Positions 4,809 through 45,783 of a stretch of DNA of 64,000 nt are shown here, piece by piece. The notes under the pieces were generated by a model, which worked only from the letters and a program-made list of their open reading frames with translations, made no database searches and was not told where the DNA came from. Position 1 is the first letter of the stretch. Each line of letters opens with the position of its first letter. This stretch comes from the human T2T-CHM13v2.0 reference genome, Homo sapiens. The position numbers and the translations under genes were made by a program. The stretch is from assembly GCF_009914755.1 (NCBI RefSeq), contig NC_060946.1; one strand, written 5' to 3'.

Positions 4809-5089
4809 CCCGACCAGAGAAAAACCCTGTAGACATTAGTCACTCCTCATTCTGTCTCAAACCCTCTCCCTGACCCTCAGCCCTAGGTAGCAACTACCTA
4901 GTGCGATCAATCCCATATGCATAGATTTCCATATTGTGGACATTTCCTATAAGCGGAATTGCACAATAGGGGAGCTGTTATGACTGACATAACACGTAGC
5001 ACAATATTTTCAAGATTCGTCCACATTGTAGGCTTACCCACAGGGGGAAACCATTTTATTGGGGGCTTTTAGTAACACCGGTGTTTTCT

Positions 5090-5200
5090 CCTTCCTTACG
5101 TCCTTCTTTCCTTCCTTCCTTCCTTCCTTCCTGACTTCCTTCTTTCCTTCCCTCATTCCTCCTATTTCTCTCTTACTCCTTCTGCCCTCTCTCTTTCCTA
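5090..5200 (+). repeat. (TTCC)n / pyrimidine-rich microsatellite, present in every unit with variable length
   Basis: ttccttccttcc... tract; copies near 11390, 17840, 24115, 30545, 36830, 43270, 49555, 55985 and 62430. Confidence 0.9.
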
Positions 5201-5385
5201 TGCCTTAGGTGAATCCCACATTCTGCGTTTTTTTGGGGAAATCCTTGAAAGGTGCAGGAAAATTGTGTTATTGTAACTATTTACCGTTATCTCTCTTTCA
5301 CGGCTCTCCATCAGTTGTGAACATCTATTGGTTTATCCCAAGTCACTAAGCATATTTTCATTAGGTAAACCTGTTTTTCCTTATA

Positions 5386-5517
5386 CAGCTGTTTCTGGAG
5401 TATAGGGTCGCATACTCATAAACCCAGTGTAACTCAGAAACGCATCTAATATTCCAGTAAACCCATCATAACGTTGAAAAATCGTAAATCAAACCATCAT
5501 AAGTCACGGTTTGTCCG
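5386..5517 (+). mobile_element. MER47/Tigger-family DNA transposon remnant (in every unit)
   Basis: ta|cag(c/a)tg...cataaaccca...aaacccatcataacgttgaaaaatcgtaaatcaaaccatcataagtc..gtccg resembles the MER47 MITE consensus as I recall it. Confidence 0.5.
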
Positions 5518-5904
5518 TGGATATGGGCGTCATCAATTCCATTGTATTCAGTAATGCTGTACACCATTAACAATGGCAGACTGATTGGGAGTGGATATTG
5601 ATAGCATTATAAAAGTCAGTTATTAGAGGGATACTTCTTTAACCTGACTGAAGAACTGATCTAATGGCTTTAGTACAGTGCATGATTATGTGCGATGTTT
5701 TGAGACAGAGTAGTACATTTGTGAATGAAATTTTATGGCTTTTTTTTCACTTAGTAGGAACCATTGTGTGTGGAAAAGTGAGAAAATGGCTTTATGCTGT
5801 AGGGTCTGGCATTCATTGTAGATGTAAGCTGATTTTTCTGTGAGCAAATCTTATTCAATAAAATACTACTCTTTATACTAAAAAACAAAAACAGTGGTGA
5901 TGTG

Positions 5905-6236
5905 TGGTCATTACCCTCAGCAAACTTATCCAGGGAAAAGAAAACCAAACGCCACAACTCACTTATAATGGGAGCTGAAAAATGAGATCCCATGGACACA
6001 GGAAGGGGAACAACACACACTGGGGCCTTCCGGGAGACAGAGCGTTAAGAAAAACAGCTACTGCATGCTGGGCTTAATACCTAGGTGATGGGTTGACAGG
6101 TGCAGCAAACCACCATGGCACACGTTAACCTTAGTAACAAATCTGCACATCCTGCACATATACCCCAGAACTTAGGAACGAAACGAAACAAAAGACAACG
6201 AAAAAGCAATAGCAAAACGCTAAAGGCAAAATAAAG
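5905..6236 (+). mobile_element. L1PA (older primate subfamily) 3' UTR fragment with decayed A-tail (in every unit)
   Basis: cctcagcaaact...ctcacttataa.tgggagctga...ggacaca..gaggggaacaacacacactgggg...aatacctaggtgatgggttgacaggtgcagcaaaccaccatggcacacg...cctgcacat.taccccagaactta, then an A-rich tail. Confidence 0.85.
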
Positions 6237-6369
6237 TTTCAAACTGAGAAAGTGACAGACCAACGTCTGGTTCAAATCATGGTTCTCAACCCAGGTGCCA
6301 TAAGGTCGGGATAAAGGATGTGATTACATATTGTCAATAAGACATGCAGCAAATGACCAGAATGATTAT

Positions 6370-6842
6370 TCTCAACATATGTGTGTCTTCTAATTCAATG
6401 GTGACGCTATCTACCGGGACATAGCATTAGATTCCAAAGGGCCGAGTCCCGCCAGACAGGCCTCCCACACTAATAACAATGGGAAGCCCTACGTTGCTTT
6501 ACCTGTGCTTCTCAGCCACTGGCTATAAATCAGGTTGCCACCACTCCCAGATTTAGTTGCATTCATTTGCTGGAAGAGCTCACAGCACGCAGGGAAACAC
6601 TTACATCTGCCGTTGTATTTTAGCGGACATTGCACAAAGTTCAGAAATAAATGTGGGGCCCGGCACGTGGGGAGGGGCGCACTACCTTCCAGGAAGTGTT
6701 ATCCGGAAGCTCTCTGAACCCAGTCCTTTTGGGTTTTGATGGAGACCTCATTCTATAGGCATGATGGGTTAAACCATAGGCTATTGGTGATCAACTCCAC
6801 CTGGGGCTCTCCACCCTCCCTGGAAATTGGGGTTGAGGCTTT
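6370..6842. mobile_element. MER21-family LTR fragment (in every unit)
   Basis: Diagnostic MER21 segments: ggctataaatc.gg; atttgctggaagagctcacag..cagggaaacacttac; ggaagctctctgaacccagtccttttgggtttt.atggag; ggctattggtgatcaactc.acct; ccctccctgga..ttgggg. Confidence 0.7.
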
Positions 6843-6920
6843 GCCATTCTCAGTCTGACTAAAAGAATTTACCCAAACGGAATTTTAAAACAGATGAGCA
6901 TAACTGGAATCTTAATTAGA

Positions 6921-6931
6921 TGATTGGATTA
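6921..6931 (-). promoter_or_regulatory. DUX4/double-homeodomain-type binding motif TAATCCAATCA
   Basis: The + strand reads TGATTGGATTA, an exact fit to the DUX4 consensus TAAYYYAATCA. It is conserved in all 9 complete units (6921, 13229, 19658, 25938, 32363, 38663, 45088, 51376, 57823). Binding itself is not shown. Confidence 0.55.
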
Positions 6932-7393
6932 TCTGGAGCCACACCTTGATATTCCTAACCCGAGCACCCTCATCCAACGAATGCTCCACCCAACTGGCTC
7001 CCAAGTCTCTACGTGGTTCCAGAGCAAAAGGATGTTGATACAACGCATATCTCCACCTTTTCTTCAAAGTCTTTTCGCTTACACGGAAAGACTTCTTCAA
7101 CTGCCATGCATCAGGGTCAGGGGGAGGTCTTGTTACAACACAGATCTGCGGATCTCCGGCGTTTGACTGTGGCAAGGATGCTGCTGGTGTCAAAACCACA
7201 ACGTGGGAACCACAGAACCACTAGTGGGTTTTCAGTGTTTCAGTGCATACAATTCCTAATATTTCTGGCCAAGAAAACTTGTAAGTTCTTAGATTGTCCC
7301 AAAGGTGGCGCATGAAATCAAAGCAGGAGAACAGTTTCCTACGAGGTGTAGCCTGGGAAAGTTGGGGGTGACTGATGGAAAGGAGGAGTGAAG

Positions 7394-7465
7394 CTCCGCC
7401 CTTTCCGCTGCTAGGCTGCGCCCGAGGCTATTTAAACCCACCCTGGCTGGCCTGTACTCAGATCT
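7394..7465 (+). promoter_or_regulatory. Predicted Pol II core promoter: GC box, TATA-like box and initiator
   Basis: CTCCGCCC (7394-7401, an Sp/KLF GC box), TATTTAAA (7429-7436), and Inr CTCA(+1)GA with A at 7460, 31 bp after the TATA T. Local CpG enrichment. TATA positions in the other units: 13737, 20166, 26446, 32871, 39171, 45596, 51884, 58331. Confidence 0.65.
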
Positions 7466-7585
7466 TCGCGGAGCGGATCAGCGGCCGGAGCGTTTGGCGG
7501 ACTCTGCGTGGACTTGGAGCTCACAGCGTCTTGCGACTTGGAAGCGGGTTCAGAGGACGGGACAGAACACTTGGGCAAGTGAATC

Positions 7586-7624
<39 letters not shown>

Positions 7625-7737
7625 CATTGGTTGGTTGATTTCCATTTTCTTAAGGGGCACATACCTCACACCGCACACACACAAACACACACACGCACAC
7701 ACACACGCACACGCACACGCACACACACGCACACGCA
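7586..7737 (+). repeat. (TCTG)n and (CA/CG)n microsatellites in the predicted 5' leader
   Basis: (TCTG)9 in unit 1, with 9,7,5,6,7,6,7,6,6 copies across units 1-9. It is followed by a ~65-bp alternating CACACGCACA tract. Confidence 0.9.
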
Positions 7738-7799
7738 CTCCTTCCTTCTGCGAGTTAGAACATTAGTAGGGGCCCCTGGGAGCTGCAGGTTTCCTAATC

Positions 7800-10781
7800 A
7801 TGTCTGCACCTAAGAACAGTAGGGTCTTGTCTGGCTCTTCTTATGAACGGTTCCCCAGCCCGGACTCCCCAAGGTCCATGCGAGCCTCACCCAGCTTCTC
7901 CCTCTCCCCTCTCAGAAACTCAGGCTTAAGGGGAAGCTCCTCACCAGGGATCCGGAGCTACCATTCACCATCCCCTAGGGCTTCACCACACTCACCTCTG
8001 TCGTCACCAGAATCCCACAAGCTCCCATTTCCCTGTCCTCACCGTGATGGGCAATCAATGAAGCCATTGGGCTCTCCCGTGTCCTCTTCTGAGGATTCCT
8101 CAGAGTCCCCACGTTCATCAATAATATACCACATGTTCTTACTGCCATCACCCAGCAGCTCACCCCCAGCTCTCGGGGGGTCTCCTGTGTCTCCCAGCTA
8201 CTCTCCAAACAACCCCAGATTTCAGCTGCGGTCAGCCCCCCACACCCAGGAATCACCTACAAACTCACGAGCCTCACTTTGCTCCACCCCCGTGTCTTTC
8301 ATCTCTTCACCCCCAGGCCTCAGGGACTCTCCTGTGGCTCCCAGTTACTCTCCAGCCATCCCCAGGTTCCTGCGGGAGTCAGCCCCATGCGCCCAGGAGT
8401 CCCCCAGAGACTCACAGGTCTCGGGAGATTATGAGCGGTCCCCCAGCCCTGACTCCTCAAGATTCATGTCTGTCTCACCCAGCTTCTCCCTCTCCCCTCC
8501 CAGAAACTCAGACCCAAGGGGCAGCTCCTCACCAGGGATGTGGAAGTCCTCTACATCATCCCGCAGGGCTTCACCACTCTCACATCCGTCATCAACAGAA
8601 TTCCACAACTTTACGTTTCCCTTTCCTAACCAAGCAGGACAGTCACTCATGTCATTGTGTTCTCCCGTGACCTCCTCTGGAGATTCTTCACAGTCACCTC
8701 ATTCATCAATAATATACCATATGTTCTTACTGCCATCATCCAGCAGCTCACCCCCAGCCACCCATGACTCTCCTGTCTGTCCCAGCTACTCTCCAACTAC
8801 GCCCAGATTTCAGCGGGAGTCTGTACCCCACACCACAGAAACACCTACAAACTCACAGACCTCAGTGAGATCCTCGCCAGTCTCTCTCACGTCTTCACCC
8901 CCAGCCCTTACGGACCCTCCAGTCTGTCCCAGCTACTCTCCAACCACGCCCACATTTCAGCGCGGGTCAGTTCCAGGAACCCAGGGATCACCACCAAGCC
9001 CACCGCTTTCACTGAGTTACTCCCCAGTCTCTAGCACGTCTTTATCTCCAACCCTCAGGGACTCGCCTGTCTGTCCCAGCTACTCTCCAAACACGCCCAC
9101 ACTTCAGCGGGAGTCCGTTGCAGGCACCCAGAAGTCACCATCAAACTCACCAATTTCACTGCGTTACTCCCCAGTCTCTCTCATGTCTTCACCATCCCTC
9201 AGGGACTCTCCCGTCTGTCCCAGCTACTCTCCAACCACGCCCACATTTCAGCTGGAGTCAGTTCCAGGCACCCAGGAATCACCACCAAACTCACCAATTT
9301 CACTCAGTTACTCCTCAGTCTCTAGCACGTCTTTATCTCCAACCCTCAGGGACTCTCCTGTGTGTCCCAGCTACTCTCCAACCACGCCCACACTTCAGCG
9401 GGAGTCAGTTCCAGGCACCCAGGAATCACCACCAAACTCACCAATTTCACTCAATTACTCTCCAGTCTCTCTCGTGTCTTCACCAGCCCTCAGGGACTCT
9501 CCTGTCTGTCCCAGCTACTCTCCAACCACGCCCACATTTCAGCTGGAGTCAGTTCCAGGCACCCCGGAGTCACCACCAAACTCACCAGTTTCACTCAGTT
9601 ACTCCCCGGTCTCTCTCATGTCTTCACCCCCAGCCCTCAGGGACTCTCCTGTGCGTCCCAGCTACTCTCCAACCATGCCCAGATTTCAGCGGGAGTCAGT
9701 TCCAGGCACCCATGTGTCATCACCAAACTCAGCAGTTTCACTGAGTTACTCCCCAGTCTCTCTCATGTCTTCACCCCCAGACCCCTGGGACTCTCCTGTC
9801 TGTCCCAGCTACTCTCCCACCACGCCCAGATTTCAGCGGGAGTCAGCCTCCCACACTCCGGAATCAGATACAGACTCACAGACTTCACTGAGCTCCTCCC
9901 TGGTCTCTCTCAGGTCTTTGCCCTCATCCCACAGGGACTCTTGTGTCTCTTTCAGCTACTCTCAAAACTTCTCTAGATTCCAGCTGGAGTCAGTTCCAGG
10001 CACCCACGATACACCACCGAACTCACGAATTTCACTGACTTACTCCCCTGTCTCCCTCATGTTCTCACCCCCAGCCCTCAGGGACTCTTCTGTCTCTCTC
10101 AGCTACTCTCCAACCATCTCCAGATTTCACCTGGAGTCAGCTTCCCACACCCTGGAATCACCTGCAAACTCACGGACCTTACTGCAACCATCCCCCATTT
10201 CTTTCACCTCTTCACCCCCTGCCTTCAGGGACTCTCCTGGGTCTCCCAGCTTCTCTCCAGCCTTCCCCAGATTTCTGCCACAGTCAGCCCCAGGCACCCA
10301 GGACAACCCTAGACACTCACAGGCCTCACCAGACTATCTCCCTATGACCTGTACCTATACAGGGATGGCTCCCACGCATCCCTCAGTGACCCCAAACCCA
10401 TCTCAACTTACACTCAGGCACTCCCAGGGCCTGACAGCTACACCCCGTTATTGTCCTTCAGTTCGAAGCCCTGGCCAATCTACTAGCCCACATGACGCAG
10501 TTACCTGGCCATTTCTCCACGGTTCCCGGGAGGGCCCCACACCCAGCCGCACAAGAGCCCCTCCTGCATTCCGTCCTCACACGCAGGCCTGTCCATCTAC
10601 TTGCTACTGTCACACTCTTGCCAGCAGAAGAGGCCCCTGTAATGGCCGATATCACCACCCAGTCTATCCTCACCCCACAGCTGTGCAGCGGGAACCCCCT
10701 GCTGGCCCACGTGGCTGCCACAGCCCATGCTGGCACGACGCTCCAGCAGGTCGGCGTCCCTGCGGGCCAAACTACCGGTGA
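7800..10781 (+). CDS. Ser/Pro/Thr-rich Pol II CTD-like repeat protein, type A (993 aa), unit 1
   Basis: Uninterrupted 2982-bp ORF. The ATG has A at -3 and is the first ATG after the predicted TSS. It contains 49-aa repeats with PSYSPTTP. Translation is unproven. Confidence 0.6.
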   Translation: MSAPKNSRVLSGSSYERFPSPDSPRSMRASPSFSLSPLRNSGLRGSSSPGIRSYHSPSPRASPHSPLSSPESHKLPFPCPHRDGQSMKPLGSPVSSSEDSSESPRSSIIYHMFLLPSPSSSPPALGGSPVSPSYSPNNPRFQLRSAPHTQESPTNSRASLCSTPVSFISSPPGLRDSPVAPSYSPAIPRFLRESAPCAQESPRDSQVSGDYERSPSPDSSRFMSVSPSFSLSPPRNSDPRGSSSPGMWKSSTSSRRASPLSHPSSTEFHNFTFPFPNQAGQSLMSLCSPVTSSGDSSQSPHSSIIYHMFLLPSSSSSPPATHDSPVCPSYSPTTPRFQRESVPHTTETPTNSQTSVRSSPVSLTSSPPALTDPPVCPSYSPTTPTFQRGSVPGTQGSPPSPPLSLSYSPVSSTSLSPTLRDSPVCPSYSPNTPTLQRESVAGTQKSPSNSPISLRYSPVSLMSSPSLRDSPVCPSYSPTTPTFQLESVPGTQESPPNSPISLSYSSVSSTSLSPTLRDSPVCPSYSPTTPTLQRESVPGTQESPPNSPISLNYSPVSLVSSPALRDSPVCPSYSPTTPTFQLESVPGTPESPPNSPVSLSYSPVSLMSSPPALRDSPVRPSYSPTMPRFQRESVPGTHVSSPNSAVSLSYSPVSLMSSPPDPWDSPVCPSYSPTTPRFQRESASHTPESDTDSQTSLSSSLVSLRSLPSSHRDSCVSFSYSQNFSRFQLESVPGTHDTPPNSRISLTYSPVSLMFSPPALRDSSVSLSYSPTISRFHLESASHTLESPANSRTLLQPSPISFTSSPPAFRDSPGSPSFSPAFPRFLPQSAPGTQDNPRHSQASPDYLPMTCTYTGMAPTHPSVTPNPSQLTLRHSQGLTATPRYCPSVRSPGQSTSPHDAVTWPFLHGSREGPTPSRTRAPPAFRPHTQACPSTCYCHTLASRRGPCNGRYHHPVYPHPTAVQREPPAGPRGCHSPCWHDAPAGRRPCGPNYR
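8150..10400 (+). repeat. ACRO1-type 147-bp satellite block, coding within the long ORF (in every unit)
   Basis: Core cccagctactctcc (or a variant) at 8193 and 8340, then 8781, 8928, 9075, 9219, 9366, 9510, 9657, 9804, 9951, 10098 and 10245. Spacing is 147 bp, or 144 bp in two places. Long units have one extra monomer. Confidence 0.85.
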
Positions 10782-10989
10782 CATGTCTAGCGTGACCCTC
10801 CTTCCTGGCAGTGACACTGTTGATGTGAACCCCAATTTCACATCTGTCATTTGTAAATAGGACCATTTTCCCTTTTCGCTCTCCCTTCCATTCACAGGGC
10901 TTTTCATTCTCTCTGTTACTGCCTCCGTTTCAGATATTTACTCACCTTTTTCTCTCTCACTATGTCTGCCGTGGGCTCCATGAGAGTGC

Positions 10990-11325
10990 GCCACATAAGA
11001 TTCCCCCATTAAAAGTCATGAATTGAGTGGCTTTTAGTATACCTGTGGTTGTGCACATTCAAATTTAATTCGCAATTCATTGTAGAACGTCTTATCACTC
11101 CCGGCCAGAGAAAAACCCTGTAGACATTAGTCACTCCTCATTCTGTCTCAAACCCTCTCCCTGACCCTCAGCCCTAGGTAGCAACTACCTAGTGCGATCA
11201 ATCCCATATGCATAGATTATCATATTGTGGACATTTCCTATAAGCGGAATTACACAATAGGTGAGCTGTTATGACTGACATAACACGTAGCACAATATTT
11301 TCAAGATTCGTCCACATTGTAGGCT
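10990..11325 (-). mobile_element. Old L1M (MB/ME-like) 3' end fragment, antisense (in every unit)
   Basis: cccatt.aaagt...aattgagtggcttttagtata...gttgtgca...tagaac...cattagtcactcc.catt...attgtggacatttc.tataa..ggaatt...ttttcaagattc.tcca..ttgtag matches the L1M 3' antisense pattern. Confidence 0.6.
11008..11052 (+). terminator. Candidate polyadenylation signal ATTAAA plus GT-rich downstream element
   Basis: ATTAAA lies 227 bp after the stop codon, followed by gagtggcttttagtatacctgtggttgtg. The offset is the same in all units (17455, 23729, 30160, 36442, 42885, 49167, 55598, 62045). Confidence 0.45.
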
Positions 11326-13893
11326 TACCCACAGGGGGAAACCATTTTATTGGGGGCTTTTAGTAACACCGGTGTTTTCTCCTTCCTTACATCCTTCTTT
11401 CCATCCTTCCTTCCTTCCTTCCTTCCTTCCTTCCTTCCTGACTTCCTTCTTTCCTTCCCTCCTTCCTCCTATTTCTCTCTTACTCCTTCTGCCCTCTCTC
11501 TTTCCTATGCCTTAGGTGCATCCCACATTCTGCGTTTTTTTGGGGGAAATCCTCGACAGGTGCAGGAAAATTGTGTTATTGTAACTATTTACCGTTATCT
11601 CTCTTTCACGGCTCTCCATCAGTTGTGAACATCTATTGGTTTATCCCAAGTCACTAAGCATATTTTCATTAGGTAAACCTGTTTTTCCTTATACAGCTGT
11701 TTCTGGAGTATAGGGTCGCATACTCATAAACCCAGTGTAACTCAGAAACGCATCTAATATTCCAGTAAACCCATCATAACGTTGAAAAATCGTAAATCAA
11801 ACCATCATAAGTCACGGTTTGTCCGTGGATATGGGCGTCATCAATTCCATTGTATTCAGTAATGCTGTACACCATTAACAATGGCAGACTGATTGGGAGT
11901 GGATATTGATAGCATTATAAAAGTCAGTTATTAGAGGGATACTTCTTTAACCTGACTGAAGAACTGATCTAATGGCTTTAGTACAGTGCATGATTATGTG
12001 CGATGTTTTGAGACAGAGTAGTGCATTTGTGAATGAAATTTTATGGCTTTTTTTTCACTTAGTAGGAACCATTGTGTGTGGAAAAGTGAGAAAATGGCTT
12101 TCTGCTGTAGGGTCTGGCATTCATTGTAGATGTAAGCTTATTTTTCTGTGAGCAAATCTTATTCAATAAAATACTACTCTTTATACTAAAAAACAAAAAC
12201 AGTGGTGATGTGTGGTCATTACCCTCAGCAAACTTATCCAGGGAAAAGAAAACCAAACGCCACAACTCACTTATAATGGGAGCTGAAAAATGAGATCCCA
12301 TGGACACAGGAAGGGGAACAACACACACTGGGGCCTTCCGGGAGACAGAGCGTTAAGAAAAACAGCTACTGCATGCTGGGCCTAATACCTAGGTGATGGG
12401 TTGACAGGTGCAGCAAACCACCATGGCACACGTTAACCTTAGTAACAAACCTGCACATCCTGCACATATACCCCAGAACTTAGGAACGAAACGAAACAAA
12501 AGACAACGAAAAAGCAATAGCAAAACGCTAAAGGCAAAATAAAGTTTCAAACTGAGAAAGTGACAGACCAACGTCTGGTTGAAATCATGGTTCTCAACCC
12601 AGGTGCCATAAGGTCGGGATAAAGGATGTGATTACATATTGTCAATAAGACATGCAGCAAATGACCAGAATGATTATTCTCAACATATGTGTGTCTTCTA
12701 ATTCAATGGTGACGCTATCTACCGGGACATAGCATTAGATTCCAAAGGGCCGAGTCCCGCCAGACAGGCCTCCCACAATAATAACAATGGGAAGCCCTAC
12801 GTTGCTTTACCTGTGCTTCTCAGCCACTGGCTATAAATCAGGTTGCCACCACTCCCAGATTTAGTTGCATTCATTTGCTGGAAGAGCTCACAGCACGCAG
12901 GGAAACACTTACATCTGCCGTTGTATTTTAGCGGACATTGCACAAAGTTCAGAAATAAATGTGGGGCCCGGCACGTGGGGAGGGGCGCACTACCTTCCAG
13001 GAAGTGTTATCCGGAAGCTCTCTGAACCCAGTCCTTTTGGGTTTTGATGGAGACCTCATTCTATAGGCATGATGGGTTAAACCATAGGCTATTGGTGATC
13101 AACTCCACCTGGGGCTCTCCACCCTCCCTGGAAATTGGGGTTGAGGCTTTGCCATCCTCAGTCTGACTAAAAGAATTTACCCAAACGGAATTTTAAAACA
13201 GATGAGCATAACTGGAATCTTAATTAGATGATTGGATTATCTGGAGCCACACCTTGATATTCCTAACCCGAGCACCCTCATCCAACGAATGCTCCACCCA
13301 ACTGGCTCCGAAGTCTCTACGTGGTTCCAGAGCAAAAGGATGTTGATACAACGCATATCTCCACCTTTTCTTCAAAGTCTTTTCGCTTACACGGAAAGAC
13401 TTCTTCAACTGCCATGCATCAGGGTCAGGGGGAGGTCTTGTTACAACACAGATCTGCGGATCTCCGGCGTTTGACTGTGGCAAGGATGCTGCTGGTGTCA
13501 AAACCACAACGTGGGAACCACAGAACCACTAGTGGGTTTTCAGTGTTTCAGTGCATAGAATTCCTAATATTTCTGGCCAAGAAAACTTGTAAGTTCTTAG
13601 ATTGTCCCAAAGGTGGCGCATGAAATCAAAGCAGGAGAACAGTTTCCTACGAGGTGTAGCCTGGGAAAGTTGGGGGTGACTGATGGAAAGGAGGAGTGAA
13701 GCTCCGCCCTTTCCGCTGCTAGGCTGCGCCCGAGGCTATTTAAACCCACCCTGGCTGGCCTGTACTCAGATCTTCGCGGAGCGGATCAGCGGCCGGAGCG
13801 TTTGGCGGACTCTGCGTGGACTTGGAGCTCACAGCGTCTTGCGACTTGGAAGCGGATTCAGAGGACAGGACAGAACACTTGGGCAAGTGAATC

Positions 13894-13924
<31 letters not shown>

Positions 13925-14099
13925 CATTGGTTGGTTGATTTCCATTTTCTTAAGGGGCACATACCTCACACCGCACACACACAAACACACACACGCACAC
14001 ACACACGCACACGCACACGCACACACACGCACACACACTCCTTCCTTCTGCGAGTTAGAACATTAGTAGGGGCCCCTGGGAGCTGCAGGTTTCCTAATC

Positions 14100-17000
14100 A
14101 TGTCTGCACCTAAGAACGGTAGGGTCTTGTCTGGCTCTTCTTATGAACGGTCCCCCAGCCCGGACTCCCCAAGGTCCATGCGAACCTCACCCAGCTTCCC
14201 CCTCTCCCCTCTCAGAAACTCAGGCTTAAGGGGAAGCTCCTCACCAGGGATCCGGAGCTACCATTCACCATCCCCTAGGGCTTCACCACACTCACCTCTG
14301 TCATCACCAGAATCCCACAAGCTCCCATTTCCCTGTCCTCACCGTGATGGGCAATCAATGAAGCCATTGGGCTCTCCCGTGTCCTCCACTGAGGATTCCT
14401 CAGAGTCCCCACGTTCATCAATAATATACCACATGTTCTTACTGCCATCACCCAGCAGCTCACCCCAGGCTCTCGGGGGGTCTCCTGTGTCTCCCAGCTA
14501 CTCTCCAAACAACCCCAGATTTCAGCTGCAGTCAGCCCCCCACACCCAGGAATCACCTACAAACTCACGAGCCTCACTTTGCTCCACCCCTGCGTCTTTC
14601 ATCTCTTCACCCCAAGGCCTCAGGGACTCTCCTGTGGCTCCCAGTTACTCTCCAGCCATCCCCAGGTTCCTGCGGGAGTCAGCCCCATGCGCCCAGGAGT
14701 CCCCCAGAGACTCACAGGTCTCGGGAGATTATGAGCGGTCCCCCAGCCCTGACTCCTCAAGATTCATGCCTGCCTCACCCAGCTTCTCCCTCTCCCCTCC
14801 CAGAAACTCAGACCCAAGGGGCAGCTCCTCACCAGGGATGTGGAAGTCCTCTACATCATCCCGCAGGGCTTCACCACTCTCACATCCGTCATCAACAGAA
14901 TTCCACAACTTTACGTTTCCCATTCCTAACCAAGCAGGACAGTCACTCATGTCATTGTGTTCTCCCGTGACCTCCTCTGGAGATTCTTCACAGTCACCTC
15001 ATTCATCAATAATATACCATATGTTCTTACTGCCATCATCCAGCAGCTCACCCCCAGCCACCCATGACTCTCCTGTCTGTCCCAGCTACTCTCCAACTAC
15101 GCCCAGATTTCAGCGGGAGTCTGTACCCCACACCCCAGAAACACCTACAAACTCACAGACCTCAGTGAGATCCTCGCCAGTCTCTCTCACGTCTTCACCC
15201 CCAGCCCTTACGGACCCTCCAGTCTGTCCCAGCTACTCTCCAACCACGCCCACATTTCAGCGCGGGTCAGTTCCAGGAACCCAGGGATCACCACCAAGCC
15301 CACCGCTTTCACTGAGTTACTCCCCAGTCTCTAGCACGTCTTTATCTCCAACCCTCAGGGACTCGCCTGTCTGTCCCAGCTACTCTCCAAACACGCCCAC
15401 ACTTCAGCGGGAGTCCGTTGCAGGCACCCAGAAGTCACCACCAAACTCACCAATTTCACTGCGTTACTCCCCAGTCTCTCTCATGTCTTCACCATCCCTC
15501 AGGGACTCTCCCGTCTGTCCCAGCTACTCTCCAACCACGCCCACATTTCAGCTGGAGTCAGTTCCAGGCACTCCGGAATCACCACCAAACTCACCAATTT
15601 CACTCAGTTACTCCTCAGTCTCTAGCACGTCTCTATCTCCAACCCTCAGGGACTCTCCTGTGTGTCCCAGCTACTCTCCAACCACGCCCACACTTCAGCG
15701 GGAGTCAGTTCCAGGCACCCAGGAATCACCACCAAACTCACCAATTTCACTCAGTTACTCCTCAGTCTCTAGCACGTCTTTATCTCCAACCCTCAGGGAC
15801 TCTCCTGTGTGTCCCAGCTACTCTCCAACCACGCCCACACTTCAGCGGGAGTCAGTTCCAGGCACCCAGGAATCACCACCAAACTCACCAATTTCACTCA
15901 ATTACTCTCCAGTCTCTCTCGTGTCTTCACCAGCCCTCAGGGACTCTCCTGTCTGTCCCAGCTACTCTCCAACCACGCCCACATTTCAGCTGGAGTCAGT
16001 TCCAGGCACCCCGGAGTCACCACCAAACTCACCGGTTTCACTCAGTTACTCCTCGGTCTCTCTCATGTCTTCACCCCCAGCCCTCAGGGACTCTCCTGTG
16101 TGTCCCAGCTACTCTCCAACCATGCCCAGATTTCAGCGGGAGTCAGTTCCAGGCACCCATGTATCACCACCAAACTCAGCAGTTTCACTGAGTTACTCCC
16201 CAGTCTCTCTCATGTCTTCACCCCCAGACCCCTGGGACTCTCCTGTCTGTCCCAGCTACTCTCCCACCACGCCCAGATTTCAGCGGGAGTCAGCCTCCCA
16301 CACTCCGGAATCAGATACAGACTCACAGACCTCACTGAACTCCTCCCTGGTCTCTCTCAGGTCTTTGCCCTCATCCCACAGGGACTCTTGTGTCTCTTTC
16401 AGCTACTCTCAAAACTTCTCTAGATTCCAGCTGGAGTCAGTTCCAGGCACCCACGATACACCACCGAACTCACGAATTTCACTGACTTACTCCCCAGTCT
16501 CCCTCATGTTCTCACCCCCAGCCCTCAGGGACTCTTCTGTCTCTCTCAGCTACTCTCCAACCATCTCCAGATTTCACCTGGAGTCAGCTTCCCACACCCT
16601 GGAATCACCTGCAAACTCACGGACCTTACTGCAACCATCCCCCATTTCTTTCACCTCTTCACCCCCTGCCTTCAGGGACTCTCCTGGGTCTCCCAGCTTC
16701 TCTCCAGCCTTCCCCAGATTTCTGCCACAGTCAGCCCCAGGCACCCAGGACAACCCTAGACACTCACAGGCCTCACCAGACTATCTCCCTATGACCTGTA
16801 CCTATACAGGGATGGCTCCCACGCATAGCTCAGTGACCCCAAACCCATCTCCACTTACACTCAGGCACTCCCAGGGCCTGACAGCTACTCCCCGTTATTG
16901 TCCTTCAGTTCGAAGCCCTGGCCAATCTACTAGCCCACATGACGCAGTTACCTGGCCATTTCTCCACGGTTCCCAGGAGGGCCCCACACCCAGCCGCACA

Positions 17001-17228
17001 AGAGCCCCTCCTGCATTCCGTCCTCACACGCAGGCCTGTCCATCTACTTGCTACTGTCACACTCTTGCCAGCAGAAGAGGCCCCTGTAATGGCCGATATC
17101 ACCACCCAGTCTATCCTCACCCCACAGCTGTGCAGCGGGAACCCCCTGCTGGCCCACGTGGCTGCCACAGCCCATGCTGGCACGACGCTCCAGCAGGTCG
17201 GCGTCCCTGCGGGCCAAACTACCGGTGA
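14100..17228 (+). CDS. CTD-like repeat protein, type B (1042 aa), unit 2
   Basis: Intact ORF with one extra in-frame 147-bp monomer (15754-15900) relative to type A and about 20 aa substitutions. Confidence 0.6.
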   Translation: MSAPKNGRVLSGSSYERSPSPDSPRSMRTSPSFPLSPLRNSGLRGSSSPGIRSYHSPSPRASPHSPLSSPESHKLPFPCPHRDGQSMKPLGSPVSSTEDSSESPRSSIIYHMFLLPSPSSSPQALGGSPVSPSYSPNNPRFQLQSAPHTQESPTNSRASLCSTPASFISSPQGLRDSPVAPSYSPAIPRFLRESAPCAQESPRDSQVSGDYERSPSPDSSRFMPASPSFSLSPPRNSDPRGSSSPGMWKSSTSSRRASPLSHPSSTEFHNFTFPIPNQAGQSLMSLCSPVTSSGDSSQSPHSSIIYHMFLLPSSSSSPPATHDSPVCPSYSPTTPRFQRESVPHTPETPTNSQTSVRSSPVSLTSSPPALTDPPVCPSYSPTTPTFQRGSVPGTQGSPPSPPLSLSYSPVSSTSLSPTLRDSPVCPSYSPNTPTLQRESVAGTQKSPPNSPISLRYSPVSLMSSPSLRDSPVCPSYSPTTPTFQLESVPGTPESPPNSPISLSYSSVSSTSLSPTLRDSPVCPSYSPTTPTLQRESVPGTQESPPNSPISLSYSSVSSTSLSPTLRDSPVCPSYSPTTPTLQRESVPGTQESPPNSPISLNYSPVSLVSSPALRDSPVCPSYSPTTPTFQLESVPGTPESPPNSPVSLSYSSVSLMSSPPALRDSPVCPSYSPTMPRFQRESVPGTHVSPPNSAVSLSYSPVSLMSSPPDPWDSPVCPSYSPTTPRFQRESASHTPESDTDSQTSLNSSLVSLRSLPSSHRDSCVSFSYSQNFSRFQLESVPGTHDTPPNSRISLTYSPVSLMFSPPALRDSSVSLSYSPTISRFHLESASHTLESPANSRTLLQPSPISFTSSPPAFRDSPGSPSFSPAFPRFLPQSAPGTQDNPRHSQASPDYLPMTCTYTGMAPTHSSVTPNPSPLTLRHSQGLTATPRYCPSVRSPGQSTSPHDAVTWPFLHGSQEGPTPSRTRAPPAFRPHTQACPSTCYCHTLASRRGPCNGRYHHPVYPHPTAVQREPPAGPRGCHSPCWHDAPAGRRPCGPNYR

Positions 17229-20200
17229 CATGTCTAGCGTGACCCTCCTTCCTGGCAGTGACACTGTTGATGTGAACCCCAATTTCACATCTGTCATTTG
17301 TAAATAGGACCATTTTCCCTTTTCGCTCTCCCTTCCATTCACAGGGCTTTTCATTCTCTCTGTTACTGCCTCCGTTTCAGATATTTACTCACCTTTTTCT
17401 CTCTCACTATGTCTGCCGTGGTCTCCATGAGAGTGCGCCACATAAGATTCCCCCATTAAAAGTCATGAATTGAGTGGCTTTTAGTATACCTGTGGTTGTG
17501 CACATTCAAATTTAATTCGCAATTCATTGTAGAACGTCTTATCACTCCCGGCCAGAGAAAAACCCTGTAGACATTAGTCACTCCTCATTCTGTCTCAAAC
17601 CCTCTCCCTGACCCGCAGCCCTAGGTAGCAACTACCTAGTGCGATCAATCCCATATGCATAGATTACCATATTGTGGACATTTCCTATAAGCGGAATTAC
17701 ACAATAGGTGAGCTGTTATGACTGACATAACACGTAGCACAATATTTTCAAGATTCGTCCACATTGTAGGCTTACCCACAGGGGGAAACCATTTTATTGG
17801 GGGCTTTTAGTAACACCGGTGTTTTCTCCTTCCTTACGTCCTTCTTTCCTTCCTTCCTTCCTTCCTTCCTGACTTCCTTCTTTCCTTCCCTCCTTCCTCC
17901 TATTTCTCTCTAACTCCTTCTGCCCTCTCTCTTTCCTATGCCTTAGGTGCATCCCACATTCTGCGTTTTTTTGGGGAAATCCTCGACAGGTGCAGGAAAA
18001 TTGTGTTATTGTAACTATTTACCGTTATCTCTCTTTCACGGCTCTCCATCAGTTGTGAACATCTATTGGTTTATCCCAAGTCACTAAGCATATTTTCATT
18101 AGGTAAACCTGTTTTTCCTTATACAGCTGTTTCTGGAGTATAGGGTCGCATACTCATAAACCCAGTGTAACTCAGAAACGCATCTAATATTCCAGTAAAC
18201 CCATCATAACGTTGAAAAATCGTAAATCAAACCATCATAAGTCACGGTTTGTCCGTGGATATGGGCGTCATCAATTCCATTGTATTCAGTAATGCTGTAC
18301 ACCATTAACAATGGCAGACTGATTGGGAGTGGATATTGATAGCATTATAAAAGTCAGTTATTAGAGGGATACTTCTTTAACCTGACTGAAGAACTGATCT
18401 AATGGCTTTAGTACAGTGCATGATTATGTGCGATGTTTTGAGACAGAGTAGTACATCTGTGAATGAAATTTTATGGCTTTTTTTTCACTTAGTAGGAACC
18501 ATTGTGTGTGGAAAAGTGAGAAAATGGCTTTATGCTGTAGGGTCTGGCATTCATTGTAGATGTAAGCTGATTTTTCTGTGAGCAAATCTTATTCAATAAA
18601 ATACTACTCTTTATACTAAAAAACAAAAACAGTGGTGATGTGTGGTCATTATCCTCAGCAAACTTATCCGGGGAAAGAAAACCAAACGCCACAACTCACT
18701 TATAATGGGAGCTGAAAAATGAGATCCCATGGACACAGGAAGGGGAAGAACACACACTGAGGCCTTCCGGGAGACAGAGCGTTAAGAAAAACAGCTACTG
18801 CATGCTGGGCCTAATACCTAGGTGATGGGTTGACAGGTGCAGCAAACCACCATGGCACACGTTTACCTTAGTAACAAATCTGCACATCCTGCACATATAC
18901 CCCAGAACTTAGGAACGAAACGAAACAAAAGACAACGAAAAAACAATAGCAAAACGCTAAAGGCAAAATAAAGTTTCAAACTGAGAAAGTGACAGACCAA
19001 CGTCTGGTTCAAATCATGGTTCTCAACCCAGGTGCCATAAGGTCGGGATAAAGGATGTGATTACATATTGTCAATAAGACATGCAGCAAATGACCAGAAT
19101 GATTATTCTCAACATATGTGTGTCTTCTAATTCAATGGTGACGCTATCTACCGGGACATAGCATTAGATTCCAAAGGGCCGAGTCCCGCCAGACAGGCCT
19201 CCCACACTAATAACAATGGGAAGCCCTACGTTGCTTTACCTGTGCTTCTCAGCCACTGGCTATAAATCAGGTTGCCACCACTCCCAGATTTAGTTGCATT
19301 CATTTGCTGGAAGAGCTCACAGCACGCAGGGAAACACTTACATCTGCCGTTGTATTTTAGCGGACATTGCACAAAGTTCAGAAATAAATGTGGGGCCCGG
19401 CACGTGGGGAGGGGCGCACTACCTTCCAGGAAGTGTTATCCGGAAGCTCTCTGAACCCAGTCCTTTTGGGTTTTGATGGAGACCTCATTCTATAGGCATG
19501 ATGGGTTAAACCATAGGCTATTGGTGATCAACTCCACCTGGGGCTCTCCACCCTCCCTGGAAATTGGGGTTGAGGTTTTGCCATTCTCAGTCTGACTAAA
19601 AGAATTTACCCAAACGGAATTTTAAAACAGATGAGCATAACTGGAATCTTAATTAGATGATTGGATTATCTGGAGCCACACCTTGATATTCCTAACCCGA
19701 GCACCCTCATCCAACGAATGCTCCACCCAACTGGCTCCCAAGTCTCTACGTGGTTCCAGAGCAAAAGGATGTTGATACAACGCATATCTCCACCTTTTCT
19801 TCAAAGTCTTTTCGCTTACACGGAAAGACTTCTTCAACTGCCATGCATCAGGGTCAGGGGGAGGTCTTGTTACAACCCAGATCTGCGGATCTCCGGCGTT
19901 TGACTGTGGCAAGGATGCTGCTGGTGTCAAAACCACAACGTGGGAACCACAGAACCACTAGTGGGTTTTCAGTGTTTCAGTGCATACAATTCCTAATATT
20001 TCTGGCCAAGAAAACTTGTAAGTTCTTAGATTGTCCCAAAGGTGGCGCATGAAATCAAAGCAGGAGAACAGTTTCCTACGAGGTGTAGCCTGGGAAAGTT
20101 GGGGGTGACTGATGGAAAGGAGGAGTGAAGCTCCGCCCTTTCCGCTGCTAGGCTGCGCCCGAGGCTATTTAAACCCACCCTGGCTGGCCTGTACTCAGAT

Positions 20201-20520
20201 CTTCGCGGAGCGGATCAGCGGCCGGAGCGTTTGGCGGACTCTGCGTGGACTTGGAGCTCACAGCGTCTTGCGACTTGGAAGCGGGTTCAGAGGACAGGAC
20301 AGAACACTTGGGCAAGTGAATCTCTGTCTGTCTGTCTGTCTGTCTCATTGGTTGGTTGATTTCCATTTTCTTAAGGGGCACATACCTCACACCGCACACA
20401 CACAAACACACACACGCACACACACACGCACACGCACACGCACACACACGCACACACACTCCTTCCTTCTGCGAGTTAGAACATTAGTAGGGGCCCCTGG
20501 GAGCTGCAGGTTTCCTAATC

Positions 20521-26500: not shown

Positions 26501-26804
26501 GCCGGAGCGTTTGGTGGACTCTGCGTGGACTTGGAGCTCACAGCGTCTTGCGACTTGGAAGCGGATTCAGAGGACAGGACAGAACACTTGGGCAAGTGAA
26601 TCTCTGTCTGTCTGTCTGTCTGTCTGTCTCATTGGTTGGTTGATTTCCATTTTCTTAAGGGGCACATACCTCACACCGCACACACACAAACACACACACG
26701 CACACACACACGCACACGCACACGCACACACACGCACACACACTCCTTCCTTCTGCGAGTTAGAACATTAGTAGGGGCCCCTGGGAGCTGCAGGTTTCCT
26801 AATC

Positions 26805-29800: not shown

Positions 29801-29933
29801 ATATCACCACCCAGTCTATCCTCACCCCACAGCTGTGCAGCGGGAACCCCCTGCTGGCCCACGTGGCTGCCACAGCCCATGCTGGCACGACGCTCCAGCA
29901 GGTCGGCGTCCCTGCGGGCCAAACTACCGGTGA
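26805..29933 (+). CDS. CTD-like repeat protein, type B (1042 aa), unit 4
   Basis: Intact ORF with type B diagnostic residues throughout. Confidence 0.6.
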   Translation: MSAPKNGRVLSGSSYERSPSPDSPRSMRTSPSFPLSPLRNSGLRGSSSPGIRSYHSPSPRASPHSPLSSPESHKLPFPCPHRDGQSMKPLGSPVSSSEDSSESPRSSIIYHMFLLPSPSSSPQALGGSPVSPSYSPNNPRFQLQSAPHTQESPTNSRASLCSTPASFISSPQGLRDSPVAPSYSPAIPRFLRESAPCAQESPRDSQVSGDYERSPSPDSSRFMPASPSFSLSPPRNSDPRGSSSPGMWKSSTSSRRASPLSHPSSTEFHNFTFPIPNQAGQSLMSLCSPVTSSGDSSQSPHSSIIYHMFLLPSSSSSPPATHDSPVCPSYSPTTPRFQRESVPHTPETPTNSQTSVRSSPVSLTSSPPALTDPPVCPSYSPTTPTFQRGSVPGTQGSPPSPPLSLSYSPVSSTSLSPTLRDSPVCPSYSPNTPTLQRESVAGTQKSPPNSPISLRYSPVSLMSSPSLRDSPVCPSYSPTTPTFQLESVPGTPESPPNSPISLSYSSVSSTSLSPTLRDSPVCPSYSPTTPTLQRESVPGTQESPPNSPISLSYSSVSSTSLSPTLRDSPVCPSYSPTTPTLQRESVPGTQESPPNSPISLNYSPVSLVSSPALRDSPVCPSYSPTTPTFQLESVPGTPESPPNSPVSLSYSSVSLMSSPPALRDSPVCPSYSPTMPRFQRESVPGTHVSPPNSAVSLSYSPVSLMSSPPDPWDSPVCPSYSPTTPRFQRESASHTPESDTDSQTSLNSSLVSLRSLPSSHRDSCVSFSYSQNFSRFQLESVPGTHDTPPNSRISLTYSPVSLMFSPPALRDSSVSLSYSPTISRFHLESASHTLESPANSRTLLQPSPISFTSSPPAFRDSPGSPSFSPAFPRFLPQSAPGTQDNPRHSQASPDYLPMTCTYTGMAPTHSSVTPNPSPLTLRHSQGLTATPRYCPSVRSPGQSTSPHDAVTWPFLHGSQEGPTPSRTRAPPAFRPHTQACPSTCYCHTLASRRGPCNGRYHHPVYPHPTAVQREPPAGPRGCHSPCWHDAPAGRRPCGPNYR

Positions 29934-32900: not shown

Positions 32901-33027
32901 CAGATCTTCGCGGAGCGGATCAGCGGCCGGAGCGTTTGGCGGACTCTGCGTGGACTTGGAGCTCACAGCGTCTTGCGACTTGGAAGCGGGTTCAGAGGAC
33001 AGGACAGAACACTTGGGCAAGTGAATC

Positions 33028-33058
<31 letters not shown>

Positions 33059-33233
33059 CATTGGTTGGTTGATTTCCATTTTCTTAAGGGGCACATACCT
33101 CACACCGCACACACACAAACACACACACGCACACACACACGCACACGCACACGCACACACACGCACACACACTCCTTCCTTCTGCGAGTTAGAACATTAG
33201 TAGGGGCCCCTGGGAGCTGCAGGTTTCCTAATC

Positions 33234-39200: not shown

Positions 39201-39529
39201 CAGATCTTCGCGGAGCGGATCAGCGGCCGGAGCGTTTGGTGGACTCTGCGTGGACTTGGAGCTCACAGCGTCTTGCGACTTGGAAGCGGATTCAGAGGAC
39301 AGGACAGAACACTTGGGCAAGTGAATCTCTGTCTGTCTGTCTGTCTGTCTGTCTCATTGGTTGGTTGATTTCCATTTTCTTAAGGGGCACATACCTCACA
39401 CCGCACACACACAAACACACACACGCACACACACACGCACACGCACACGCACACACACGCACACACACTCCTTCCTTCTGCGAGTTAGAACATTAGTAGG
39501 GGCCCCTGGGAGCTGCAGGTTTCCTAATC

Positions 39530-45600: not shown

Positions 45601-45752
45601 AAACCCACCCTGGCTGGCCTGTACTCAGATCTTCGCGGAGCGGATCAGCGGCCGGAGCGTTTGGCGGACTCTGCGTGGACTTGGAGCTCACAGCGTCTTG
45701 CGACTTGGAAGCGGGTTCAGAGGACAGGACAGAACACTTGGGCAAGTGAATC

Positions 45753-45783
<31 letters not shown>

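What the first reader, a model, noticed from the sequence alone, without database searches (positions are those of the whole stretch)
8760..10400. The 147-bp satellite monomer is exactly seven 21-bp heptads in Pol II CTD register
Seen: one monomer parses as DSPVCPS / YSPTTPT / FQLESVP / GTQESPP / NSPISLS / YSPVSLM / SSPPALR (7 x 7 = 49 aa = 147 bp). Five heptads keep S2-P3, two keep Y1, four keep S5 (one keeps S5-P6) and two keep S7. The best heptad, YSPTTP(T/R), differs from YSPTSPS only at positions 5 and 7. The DNA core CCC AGC TAC TCT CCA ACC encodes PSYSPT, as in the CTD. Inference: this satellite may descend from a captured POLR2A CTD-coding segment (retrocopy or exon duplication) that diverged and was re-amplified as a 7-heptad unit. 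That would be a satellite of protein-coding origin; convergence is the alternative.
Basis: partly seen in the sequence, partly recalled or inferred. Interest (0 to 1): 0.85.

Follow-up and report, generated by a model that had tools for sequence, protein, structure and literature searches.

The report
ACRO1 satellite with CTD-like heptads
This is the known human ACRO1 satellite, whose likeness to the tail of RNA polymerase II is real but already published, and it also sits inside a long open reading frame that monkeys and rabbit share.

Summary
The 147-bp array is there, and its monomer is seven 21-bp sub-repeats: period-21 z 6.9, protein lag 7 P 5e-5. It matches (YSPTSPS)x7 at 22 of 49 positions, against 12.6 +/- 1.4 for residue shuffles.

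It is not new. This is the ACRO1 satellite inside the 6-kb ACRO composite. Boots et al. [quoted passage not shown]

I could not test descent from POLR2A at DNA level, and it remains unshown:
- The 21-mer consensus matches the heptad at only 4/7, chance 7.5%.
- Pfam's CTD model does not hit.
- Nothing outside the CTD matches RPB1.
- Other lineages are no closer to the heptad, at 19-22/49.

What I add:
- The periodicity lies only in codon positions 1 and 2.
- The frame is stop-free for 1003 or 1052 codons in 9 of 9 units.
- Collinear predicted proteins exist in marmoset, titi monkey and rabbit.

So a coding origin is plausible, through an old ORF of its own rather than a recent CTD capture.

The parts
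4814..64000 (.). ACRO composite macrosatellite. Units of 6284-6447 bp alternate between two subtypes. The left edge of the array is near 4814.
   Evidence: Spacing of the 147-bp arrays. Shared 20-mers with later units start at 4814. Units A and B differ by 55 mismatches in 6.3 kb.
8748..10303 (+). ACRO1 147-bp array of the finding, 10.6 copies. Each monomer is 7 x 21 bp.
   Evidence: TRF. Periodicity tests.
9495..9641 (+). The most CTD-like single monomer, matching (YSPTSPS)x7 at 23 of 49 positions.
8178..8471 (+). Two diverged ACRO1 monomers upstream of the main array, in the same frame.
7770..10781 (+). Stop-free frame of 1003 codons. It has a Met at 7800, a repeat domain and a Cys/His-rich tail.
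   Evidence: Collinear with marmoset, rabbit and other predicted proteins.
7884..8471 (+). First copy of a 588-bp (4 x 147 bp) internal duplication. The second copy is 8472-9059. The copies are 73% identical without any indel.
10377..10781 (+). Non-repeat C-terminal tail of the ORF, with the conserved stretch ACPSxCYCH..A.R...NG..HHP.
   Evidence: Alignment A1: 75% identity to marmoset and 43% to rabbit. AlphaFold2 gives no fold, pLDDT 41.
6921..6931 (-). TAATCCAATCA, a match to the DUX4 binding consensus (motif recalled from memory). It occurs once per unit, about 870 bp upstream of the Met.
   Evidence: 9 matches in the window, one per unit, against 0.29 expected. This is one independent site copied nine times.
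14070..17228 (+). The same ORF in the next unit: 1052 codons, with one extra 147-bp monomer. Further copies are at 20491-23502, 26775-29933, 33204-36215, 39500-42658, 45929-48940, 52213-55371 and 58660-61818.
   Evidence: 9 of 9 open. (147-bp in-frame insertion).

Best explanation
The array is the known ACRO1 satellite. It lies inside the 6.3/6.4-kb ACRO composite macrosatellite of the distal acrocentric short arms.

Its 147-bp monomer really is seven 21-bp sub-repeats. The periodicity exists only at codon positions 1 and 2 of the + strand frame that reads DSPVCPS YSPTTPR ..., so it is a protein-level feature.

That frame belongs to a 1003/1052-codon ORF. The ORF has a Met start, about 20 repeats of 49 codons and a Cys/His-rich tail. 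It is present in every unit and is collinear with predicted proteins of New World monkeys and rabbit.

My reading (inferred): ACRO1 is the expanded 49-codon repeat of an old, fast-evolving, disordered-protein ORF. That ORF was later amplified together with its flanks into a macrosatellite. Its Ser-Pro heptads resemble the Pol II CTD at motif level. Independent origin is more likely than a capture of POLR2A, but descent is not excluded.

In present-day human copies I detect no constraint on the amino-acid sequence.

What the element does is known only at RNA level, and from the literature. The sense RNA binds Pol II and blocks elongation in cis in a reporter construct. [quoted passage not shown]
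For: Identity as ACRO1/ACRO:
- 147-bp monomer in arrays within units of about 6.3 kb.
- This matches the published description: 147 bp, 1.3-2.4 kb arrays plus a short array, 6-kb unit, 23/49 identity to the CTD.

Periodicity:
- DNA period 21 has z 6.9.
- Protein lag 7 has P 5e-5.
- By codon position, z is 8.9, 4.1 and -0.3.
- Position 3 carries the least sub-repeat identity in 27 of 29 distinct monomers.

ORF:
- Open in 9 of 9 units.
- Stop trinucleotides on the + strand of the ORF fall 0, 14 and 17 by frame. Dinucleotide shuffles of the three non-array parts give P(no in-frame stop) of 0.040, 0.167 and 0.058.
- No indel occurs in a 588-bp duplication that is 27% diverged.
- Between unit subtypes, the only ORF indel is one 147-bp in-frame insertion. 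The non-ORF part has four indels, of 16, 1, 1 and 8 bp.

Homologues:
- Marmoset, 832 aa, collinear from MSASKN to the tail.
- Rabbit, 575 aa, 35% identity over 582 aligned positions, E 2e-41, including the non-repeat tail motif.
- Titi monkey and two short forms with 1-2 monomers.
- 49-aa and 7-aa periods are present in human, marmoset and rabbit.

Specificity of the CTD likeness:
- 13 of 13 PDB hits at E <= 10 are RPB1 CTDs.
- In the 1.84-billion-protein library, 48 of 50 hits are ACRO-like and the other 2 are Pol II CTDs.

RNA function and expression come from passages read in PMC7714431, PMC6545021, PMC8990217 and PMC12776069.
Against: - No coding constraint shows in recent evolution. Between monomers, diversity by codon position is 0.195, 0.25 and 0.246 (P 0.26). 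The synonymous fraction is 0.31 against 0.29 expected.
- Between unit subtypes there are 9 synonymous and 22 non-synonymous differences, and the ORF is no less diverged than the rest of the unit.
- The internal duplication gives omega 0.65, with no significant position bias.
- The whole + strand is poor in stops: 31 in 3 kb, against 186 on the - strand. Long frames therefore come more easily here.
- Many of the 48 related database proteins hop between the three + frames. The marmoset protein reads one monomer in frame +1. Frameshifted copies therefore exist.
- All homologues are computer-predicted proteins, and I saw no DNA for them.
- By my recalled estimate of neutral divergence, 76% marmoset identity in the tail is about what unconstrained sequence would give.
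- Boots et al. found no stable ACRO1 transcript in HeLa cells.
Confidence: 0.55

Rival explanations
1. 2020. A piece of POLR2A CTD-coding sequence (retrocopy or exon duplication) was captured, diverged, and was re-amplified as a seven-heptad unit. On this view the heptads are homologous to CTD heptads.
For: - 22/49 match to (YSPTSPS)x7 against 12.6 +/- 1.4 for residue shuffles, with a maximum of 20 in 20,000 shuffles.
- Heptads 1 and 2 read DSPVSPS YSPTxPR in the older-looking copies, each 5/7.
- The only non-ACRO hits in two unbiased protein searches are Pol II CTDs.
- The coding-type position pattern fits any coding source, including the CTD.
- NCBI's naming pipeline labelled the marmoset and rabbit models RPB1.
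Against: - The majority 21-mer gives only 4/7. Chance is 7.5% for >=4 and 0.46% for >=5 per random 21-mer, before allowing for the many tandem repeats in a genome.
- Heptads 3 and 4 (FQRESVP, GTQESPP) are unlike the CTD in every lineage seen.
- Pfam's CTD repeat model gives no hit at E <= 10.
- There is no similarity to RPB1 outside the CTD.
- E-values are better for yeast CTDs (3.9e-9 to 1.9e-5) than for mammalian ones (0.015-0.2), with very large bias scores.
- Other lineages are not closer to the consensus.
- The rabbit homologue means any capture would predate the primate-rabbit split. It could not be the recent, primate-only event proposed in print.
Confidence: 0.15
2. A plain non-coding satellite. 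On this view the long frame, the Ser/Pro heptads and the CTD likeness are by-products of a C-rich, stop-poor 21-bp unit, and the database proteins are gene-predictor artefacts.
For: - Neutral pattern of recent substitutions.
- Low stop density in all three + frames, which carry ORFs of 242 and 216 aa in the other two.
- Frame-hopping predicted proteins.
- Heterochromatic setting at the tip of an acrocentric short arm (hub annotation).
- Register-keeping by unequal exchange can explain the lack of indels.
Against: - 0 of 31 + strand stop trinucleotides fall in this frame, about 25 of them at independent positions.
- Periodicity is confined to codon positions 1 and 2.
- A 575-aa in-frame match to a rabbit protein includes a non-repetitive Cys/His motif.
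- The Met start and the tail are conserved in five lineages or forms.
Confidence: 0.2
3. The element works as RNA, not protein. The sense transcript carries Pol II-binding aptamers that stall the transcribing polymerase and so silence the array in cis. On this view the CTD-like codons are what makes the RNA bind (the Boots et al. model). This can coexist with either origin.
For: From passages of PMC7714431:
- Genomic SELEX with yeast Pol II enriched ACRO1, with 1029 sense mappings against 1 antisense.
- ACRO1 inserts of 0.3-1.4 kb abolished reporter RNA, while the reverse complement did not.
- The effect was co-transcriptional and acted in cis.

The + strand here is C- and A-rich, as described for such aptamers.
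Against: - The evidence is a reporter system with yeast polymerase as bait.
- The codon-to-amino-acid binding idea is untested.
- The model does not explain the conserved Met, tail and frame.
- I ran no test of it here.
Confidence: 0.35

Closest known systems
ACRO1 satellite / ACRO composite ('ACRE') of human acrocentric short arms (Boots et al. 2020, PMC7714431; bioRxiv 10.64898/2025.12.22.696095)
   Same: 147-bp monomer. Arrays of about 1.5-1.7 kb plus a short second array. Unit of about 6 kb. Distal acrocentric p-arm. A translation about half identical to the CTD, with a heptad register.
   Different: Nothing at the level of the element; this is it. 'Open reading' occurs 0 times in the Boots paper, and my four ACRO1 literature searches turned up no report of the ORF. 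The rabbit homologue conflicts with that paper's 'primates only' statement.
C-terminal domain of RNA polymerase II largest subunit (RPB1/POLR2A), heptad YSPTSPS
   Same: 7-residue period. S2-P3 in five of seven heptads, Tyr1 in two, S5 in four. 22/49 identity to the consensus. HMMER aligns it in register with CTDs.
   Different: - Two of seven heptads are unrelated to the CTD.
- The repeat unit is 49 residues, not 7.
- It is not attached to a polymerase body.
- There is no Pfam PF05001 hit.
- Homology is not shown.
D4Z4 macrosatellite carrying the DUX4 ORF (a macrosatellite with one ORF per unit)
   Same: Kilobase-scale tandem unit, each copy with a complete ORF. The expression window is cleavage-stage or DUX4-linked according to the literature.
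   Different: DUX4 is a proven retrogene with a folded homeodomain protein. Here the ORF is a predicted disordered repeat protein with no evidence of translation.
Coding minisatellites (VNTR domains of mucin-type Ser/Pro/Thr-rich proteins)
   Same: The tandem repeat length is a multiple of three, the sequence is Ser/Pro/Thr-rich and disordered, and copy number differs between lineages: 1-2 monomers in the short forms against about 15-17 here.
   Different: No signal peptide or mucin family match was found (Pfam). This comparison rests on general knowledge, not on a test.

Membership tests
ACRO1 satellite / ACRO composite | Tandem 147-bp monomer | tested here: met
   TRF gives period 147, 10.6-11.6 copies, in nine arrays. 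Spacings are 147 or 144 bp.
ACRO1 satellite / ACRO composite | Arrays embedded in a tandem unit of about 6 kb, with a long and a short ACRO1 block | tested here: met
   Array spacing is 6284-6447 bp. Each unit has a main array plus two upstream monomers at 8178-8471. The published description is quoted.
ACRO1 satellite / ACRO composite | Match to the Dfam/Repbase ACRO1 consensus, and L1PA10, MER21B and L1MB8 pieces in the unit | not testable with these tools
   No repeat library is on hand. An indirect point: the published translation is 23/49 identical to the CTD, and mine is 22/49 to the consensus heptad.
ACRO1 satellite / ACRO composite | Location on an acrocentric short arm | not tested
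   Taken from the hub's annotation (chr22:62001-126000 of T2T-CHM13).
Pol II CTD (RPB1 heptad repeats, Pfam PF05001) | Tandem heptads close to YSPTSPS | tested here: inconclusive
   22/49 overall. Heptads score 4, 5, 1, 2, 4, 4 and 2 of 7. This is above residue shuffles. The 21-mer consensus scores only 4/7.
Pol II CTD (RPB1 heptad repeats, Pfam PF05001) | Recognised by the family's profile | tested here: not met
   The Pfam scan at E <= 10 returned only PF14047 (E 2.1). PF05001 was absent.
Pol II CTD (RPB1 heptad repeats, Pfam PF05001) | Continuity with the RPB1 body or linker, or other POLR2A-derived flanks | tested here: not met
   All 13 PDB alignments fall in the CTD end of RPB1, chain residues about 1506-1840. 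The N-terminal part and the tail of the ORF match nothing.
Pol II CTD (RPB1 heptad repeats, Pfam PF05001) | Nucleotide homology to POLR2A CTD exons | not testable with these tools
Third codon positions show no periodic signal even within the monomer, so a synonymous-site test would have little power.
Macrosatellite-encoded protein gene (DUX4/D4Z4 type) | Intact ORF in each unit, conserved in other species | tested here: met
   9 of 9 units are open. Collinear predicted proteins exist in marmoset, titi monkey and rabbit.
Macrosatellite-encoded protein gene (DUX4/D4Z4 type) | Purifying selection on the protein; transcript and protein observed | tested here: not met
   Substitution patterns are neutral within the window. 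Transcription is known only from the literature. Translation is not testable here.

The most novel reading that the evidence does not exclude
Each ACRO unit carries a DUX4-responsive gene for a disordered protein of about 1000 residues, built from CTD-like Ser-Pro heptads. Its frame, start and tail have been kept since before the primate-rabbit split. At embryonic genome activation the protein would act as a CTD mimic, for example as a decoy for CTD kinases and phosphatases or as a client of Pol II condensates. The sense RNA would at the same time throttle its own transcription.
Probability: 0.08. Interest if true: 0.85.

Novelty: already known. Interest (0 to 1): 0.4.

Why it matters
The element is catalogued, and its CTD likeness and the idea of descent from CTD mRNA were published in 2020.

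Two things could still matter. Neither turned up in my four ACRO1 literature searches, which cover only the held library.

First, the heptad signal is a codon-level signal. It sits in a long frame shared with New World monkeys and rabbit. That conflicts with the published view that ACRO1 is a recent, primate-only acquisition. It also turns 'satellite' into 'amplified coding repeat'.

Second, ACRO is described as the repeat class most strongly enriched on great-ape acrocentric chromosomes. [quoted passage not shown] A translated product would therefore be a new cleavage-stage protein encoded by hundreds of kilobases of supposed heterochromatin.

Tried and rejected
- Pfam scan of the 1003-aa frame: no CTD family, only a chance-level DCR match at E 2.1.
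- AlphaFold2 on the three-species alignment of the tail: mean pLDDT 41, no secondary structure. I ran no fold search.
- Test for coding constraint between monomers: none found.
- Test for coding constraint between unit subtypes A and B: none found.
- Omega for the 588-bp internal duplication: 0.65, with position bias not significant.
Scores are human 22, marmoset 22, rabbit 19 and an unnamed short form 19 of 49. The only exception is that Ser5 of heptad 1 (Cys in the human array) looks ancestral.
- 21-mer majority consensus: only 4/7, because column 17 splits T4/C3.
- Rfam over 1-21000: nothing in the array, and one miRNA-family match outside it.
- Comparison with POLR2A DNA, and codon-shuffled synonymous-site controls: not possible, because no tool holds the gene.
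- Supplementary figures of Boots et al. (S3 on primate conservation, S7 on CTD mRNA) were not seen. They may bear on the primate-only claim.
Full report
**What is at the coordinates**

Tandem Repeats Finder reports a 147-bp array at 8748-10303, with 10.6 copies and 80% matches. Eight more arrays follow, spaced 6284-6447 bp apart and alternating between 1556 and 1703 bp. Monomer spacings are only 147 or 144 bp, or multiples of 147. Twenty-mers shared with the later units begin at window position 4814, so the left edge of the large array lies in the window. Two adjacent units differ by 55 mismatches in 6.3 kb, and one carries an extra 147-bp monomer.

**Identity**

This is the ACRO1 satellite inside the ACRO composite. 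Boots et al. 2020 (PMC7714431; abstract and passages read) describe a 147-bp consensus. It occurs as 1.3-2.4 kb and 256-bp arrays within a 6-kb higher-order unit that they call ACRE. A 2026 bioRxiv paper (10.64898/2025.12.22.696095; passages read) calls ACRO a 6-kb composite of ACRO1, L1PA10, MER21B and L1MB8. [quoted passage not shown] I could not match the sequence to the Dfam model, because no repeat library is on hand.

- The consensus of 66 well-kept monomers has its best circular self-match at lag 21 (66/147, z 4.46), followed by lags 63 and 42. The period-21 column score is 6.9 sd above dinucleotide shuffles.
That is P 5e-5, or 2e-4 over lags 1-24.
- It matches (YSPTSPS)x7 at 22 of 49 positions. 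Residue shuffles give 12.6 +/- 1.4, with a maximum of 20 in 20,000. The other five frames score 3-11.
- The quoted 49-mer is a near-consensus, not a single monomer. The closest, at 9495-9641, differs at two residues and scores 23/49.

[quoted passage not shown] A search for ACRO1 together with CTD or heptad listed no further paper linking the two among the 10 shown.

**How specific is the likeness?**

phmmer of the 1003-residue frame against all PDB sequences gave 13 hits at E <= 10. All 13 are RPB1 and all fall in the CTD. E-values are 3.9e-9, 3.2e-7 and about 2e-5 for three yeast-type CTDs, and 0.015-0.2 for mammalian ones, with very large bias corrections. The PDB holds few other long low-complexity chains, so this alone is weak evidence.

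A phmmer search of 488 residues of the array against 1.84 billion representative proteins is stronger. It gave 50 hits at E <= 1e-3. Forty-eight share five or more 5-mers with the window's own + frames, so they are ACRO-type predictions. The other two, at E 1.3e-4 and 9.1e-4, are Pol II CTDs carrying 22 and 25 YSPTSP motifs. No mucin- or extensin-type protein came up.

Against this, Pfam's CTD repeat model does not hit at E <= 10.

**Is it descent from POLR2A?**

The indirect evidence is lukewarm.

- The majority consensus of the seven 21-mers encodes YSPVSLR, 4 of 7 matches. Column 17 splits T4/C3, which would give Pro6. Random 21-mers of the same base composition, read in all phases and on both strands, reach >=4 matches 7.5% of the time and >=5 matches 0.46% of the time.
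- Sub-repeats 3 and 4 (FQRESVP, GTQESPP) share only 3-10 of 21 bases with the other five. They are unlike the CTD in every lineage I could see.
- Nothing in the frame matches RPB1 outside the CTD.
That is not borne out: species consensus monomers score 22 (human), 22 (marmoset) and 19 (rabbit) of 49, and the one monomer of an unnamed short form scores 19. The only change in the predicted direction is that heptad 1 reads DSPVSPS outside the human main array, so the Cys is derived.

**New evidence for a coding history**

1. Codon-shuffle controls hold the composition of each codon position fixed. Against them, the 21-bp periodicity is strong at position 1 (81 pairwise matches against 37.4 +/- 4.9, z 8.9) and at position 2 (69 against 50.3, z 4.1). 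It is absent at position 3 (36 against 37.6, z -0.3). Position 3 is the least periodic in 27 of 29 distinct monomers, though these are not independent. Tandem duplicates drifting without coding constraint would keep the same signal at all three positions.
2. The frame is stop-free from 7770 to 10781 (1003 codons, Met at 7800). Its counterparts are open in 9 of 9 units, at 1003 or 1052 codons, and no other frame in the 64 kb reaches 300 codons. Of the 31 stop trinucleotides on the + strand of this span, 0 lie in this frame, 14 in the second and 17 in the third. Dinucleotide shuffles of the three non-array parts give no in-frame stop with P 0.040, 0.167 and 0.058.
3. A 588-bp (4 x 147 bp) internal duplication is 27% diverged without a single indel. 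Between unit subtypes, the only ORF indel is the 147-bp monomer, whereas the non-ORF half has indels of 16, 1, 1 and 8 bp.
4. Homologues exist outside apes and outside primates.
   - A marmoset protein of 832 residues is collinear from MSASKN to the tail. Its source names it 'DNA-directed RNA polymerase II subunit RPB1'.
   - A titi monkey protein and two short forms with one or two monomers share the start and/or the tail.
   - A rabbit protein of 575 residues, also named RPB1 by its source, aligns at 35% identity over 582 positions (E 2e-41, composition-adjusted). The alignment includes the non-repetitive stretch ACPSxCYCH..A.R...NG..HHP.
   - All three species show both the 49-residue period (z 25.6, 18.1, 10.6) and the 7-residue period (z 8.9, 4.5, 3.3).
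   - This conflicts with the statement in Boots et al. that no non-primate carries a homologue and that the element is a very recent acquisition.

**Evidence against a working gene today**

- Between monomers, diversity by codon position is 0.195, 0.25 and 0.246 (P 0.26). The synonymous fraction is 0.31 against 0.29 expected.
- Between unit subtypes there are 9 synonymous and 22 non-synonymous differences. The ORF is at least as diverged as the rest of the unit.
- Omega for the internal duplication is 0.65, with no significant position bias.
- The + strand is stop-poor in every frame: 31 stop trinucleotides against 186 on the - strand.
- Many of the 48 database relatives switch between the three + frames, and the marmoset protein reads one monomer in frame +1.
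- Every homologue is a computer prediction for which I saw no DNA.
- The tail does not fold in AlphaFold2 (pLDDT 41).
- The RefSeq model for this window splices from this frame into a different one at 10385/10462, while the homologues read straight through (hub annotation).

**What it does**

Only RNA-level function has experimental support, and only from the literature.

- In genomic SELEX with yeast Pol II, ACRO1 was among the most enriched repeats, with 1029 sense mappings against 1 antisense.
- ACRO1 inserts of 0.3-1.4 kb abolished reporter RNA co-transcriptionally and in cis, while the reverse complement did not.
- No stable transcript was found in HeLa cells.
- ACRO1 expression peaks at the 4-cell stage (PMC6545021, passages).
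- ACRO1 is stated to be activated by DUX4 (PMC8990217 introduction; PMC12776069).
- Each unit here carries one exact TAATCCAATCA about 870 bp upstream of the Met: 9 matches against 0.29 expected. This is one independent site copied nine times, and the motif itself is recalled from memory.

**Verdict**

A protein-coding origin is plausible, but most simply through an old ORF of its own that carries a 49-codon repeat. A POLR2A capture is not shown and would have to be ancient.

My odds:
- Known ACRO1 satellite: near certain.
- Frame has a genuine coding history: about 0.55-0.7.
- Heptads homologous to the CTD: about 0.15.
- Functional protein in humans today: lower still.

Noticed in passing
window 1130-1214 (+): Full-length Rfam match to the mir-571 precursor family (RF03470, 90.6 bits against a gathering score of 40, E 5.5e-19). 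It lies in the non-ACRO sequence left of the array.
   Followed up: no
window 6921-6931 (-), and one site per unit (13229, 19658, 25938, 32363, 38663, 45088, 51376, 57823): Exact TAATCCAATCA, a DUX4-type site (motif recalled from memory), about 870 bp upstream of each ORF's Met. This fits published statements that DUX4 activates ACRO1 transcription.
   Followed up: partly
window 7770-61818: Units alternate between a 1003-codon and a 1052-codon form, making a dimer of about 12.7 kb. The last two units (52213 and 58660) are both the long form, so the alternation breaks there.
   Followed up: partly
window 10385/10462 and 10435-10860 (+): The RefSeq model splices out of the conserved frame into a second 141-codon frame. 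The marmoset, rabbit and short-form proteins all read straight through to the stop at 10779-10781.
   Followed up: partly
protein P0017 (rabbit, named by nr) and P0056 (unnamed, one monomer): Homologues of the ACRO ORF exist outside primates, and short forms exist with 1-2 monomers. This conflicts with the published 'primates only' statement and hints at a single-copy ancestral gene.
   Followed up: partly
window 7586-7738, 5089-5160, and the same places in each unit: Each unit carries (TCTG)n and CA-rich microsatellites just upstream of the ORF, and a (TCCT)n tract of 18-23 copies whose length differs between units.
   Followed up: no
window 7884-8471 vs 8472-9059: A 588-bp block, exactly four monomer lengths, is duplicated inside the ORF. 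The two copies are 73% identical without any indel, so the 'non-repeat' N-terminal part is itself in 147-bp register.
   Followed up: yes
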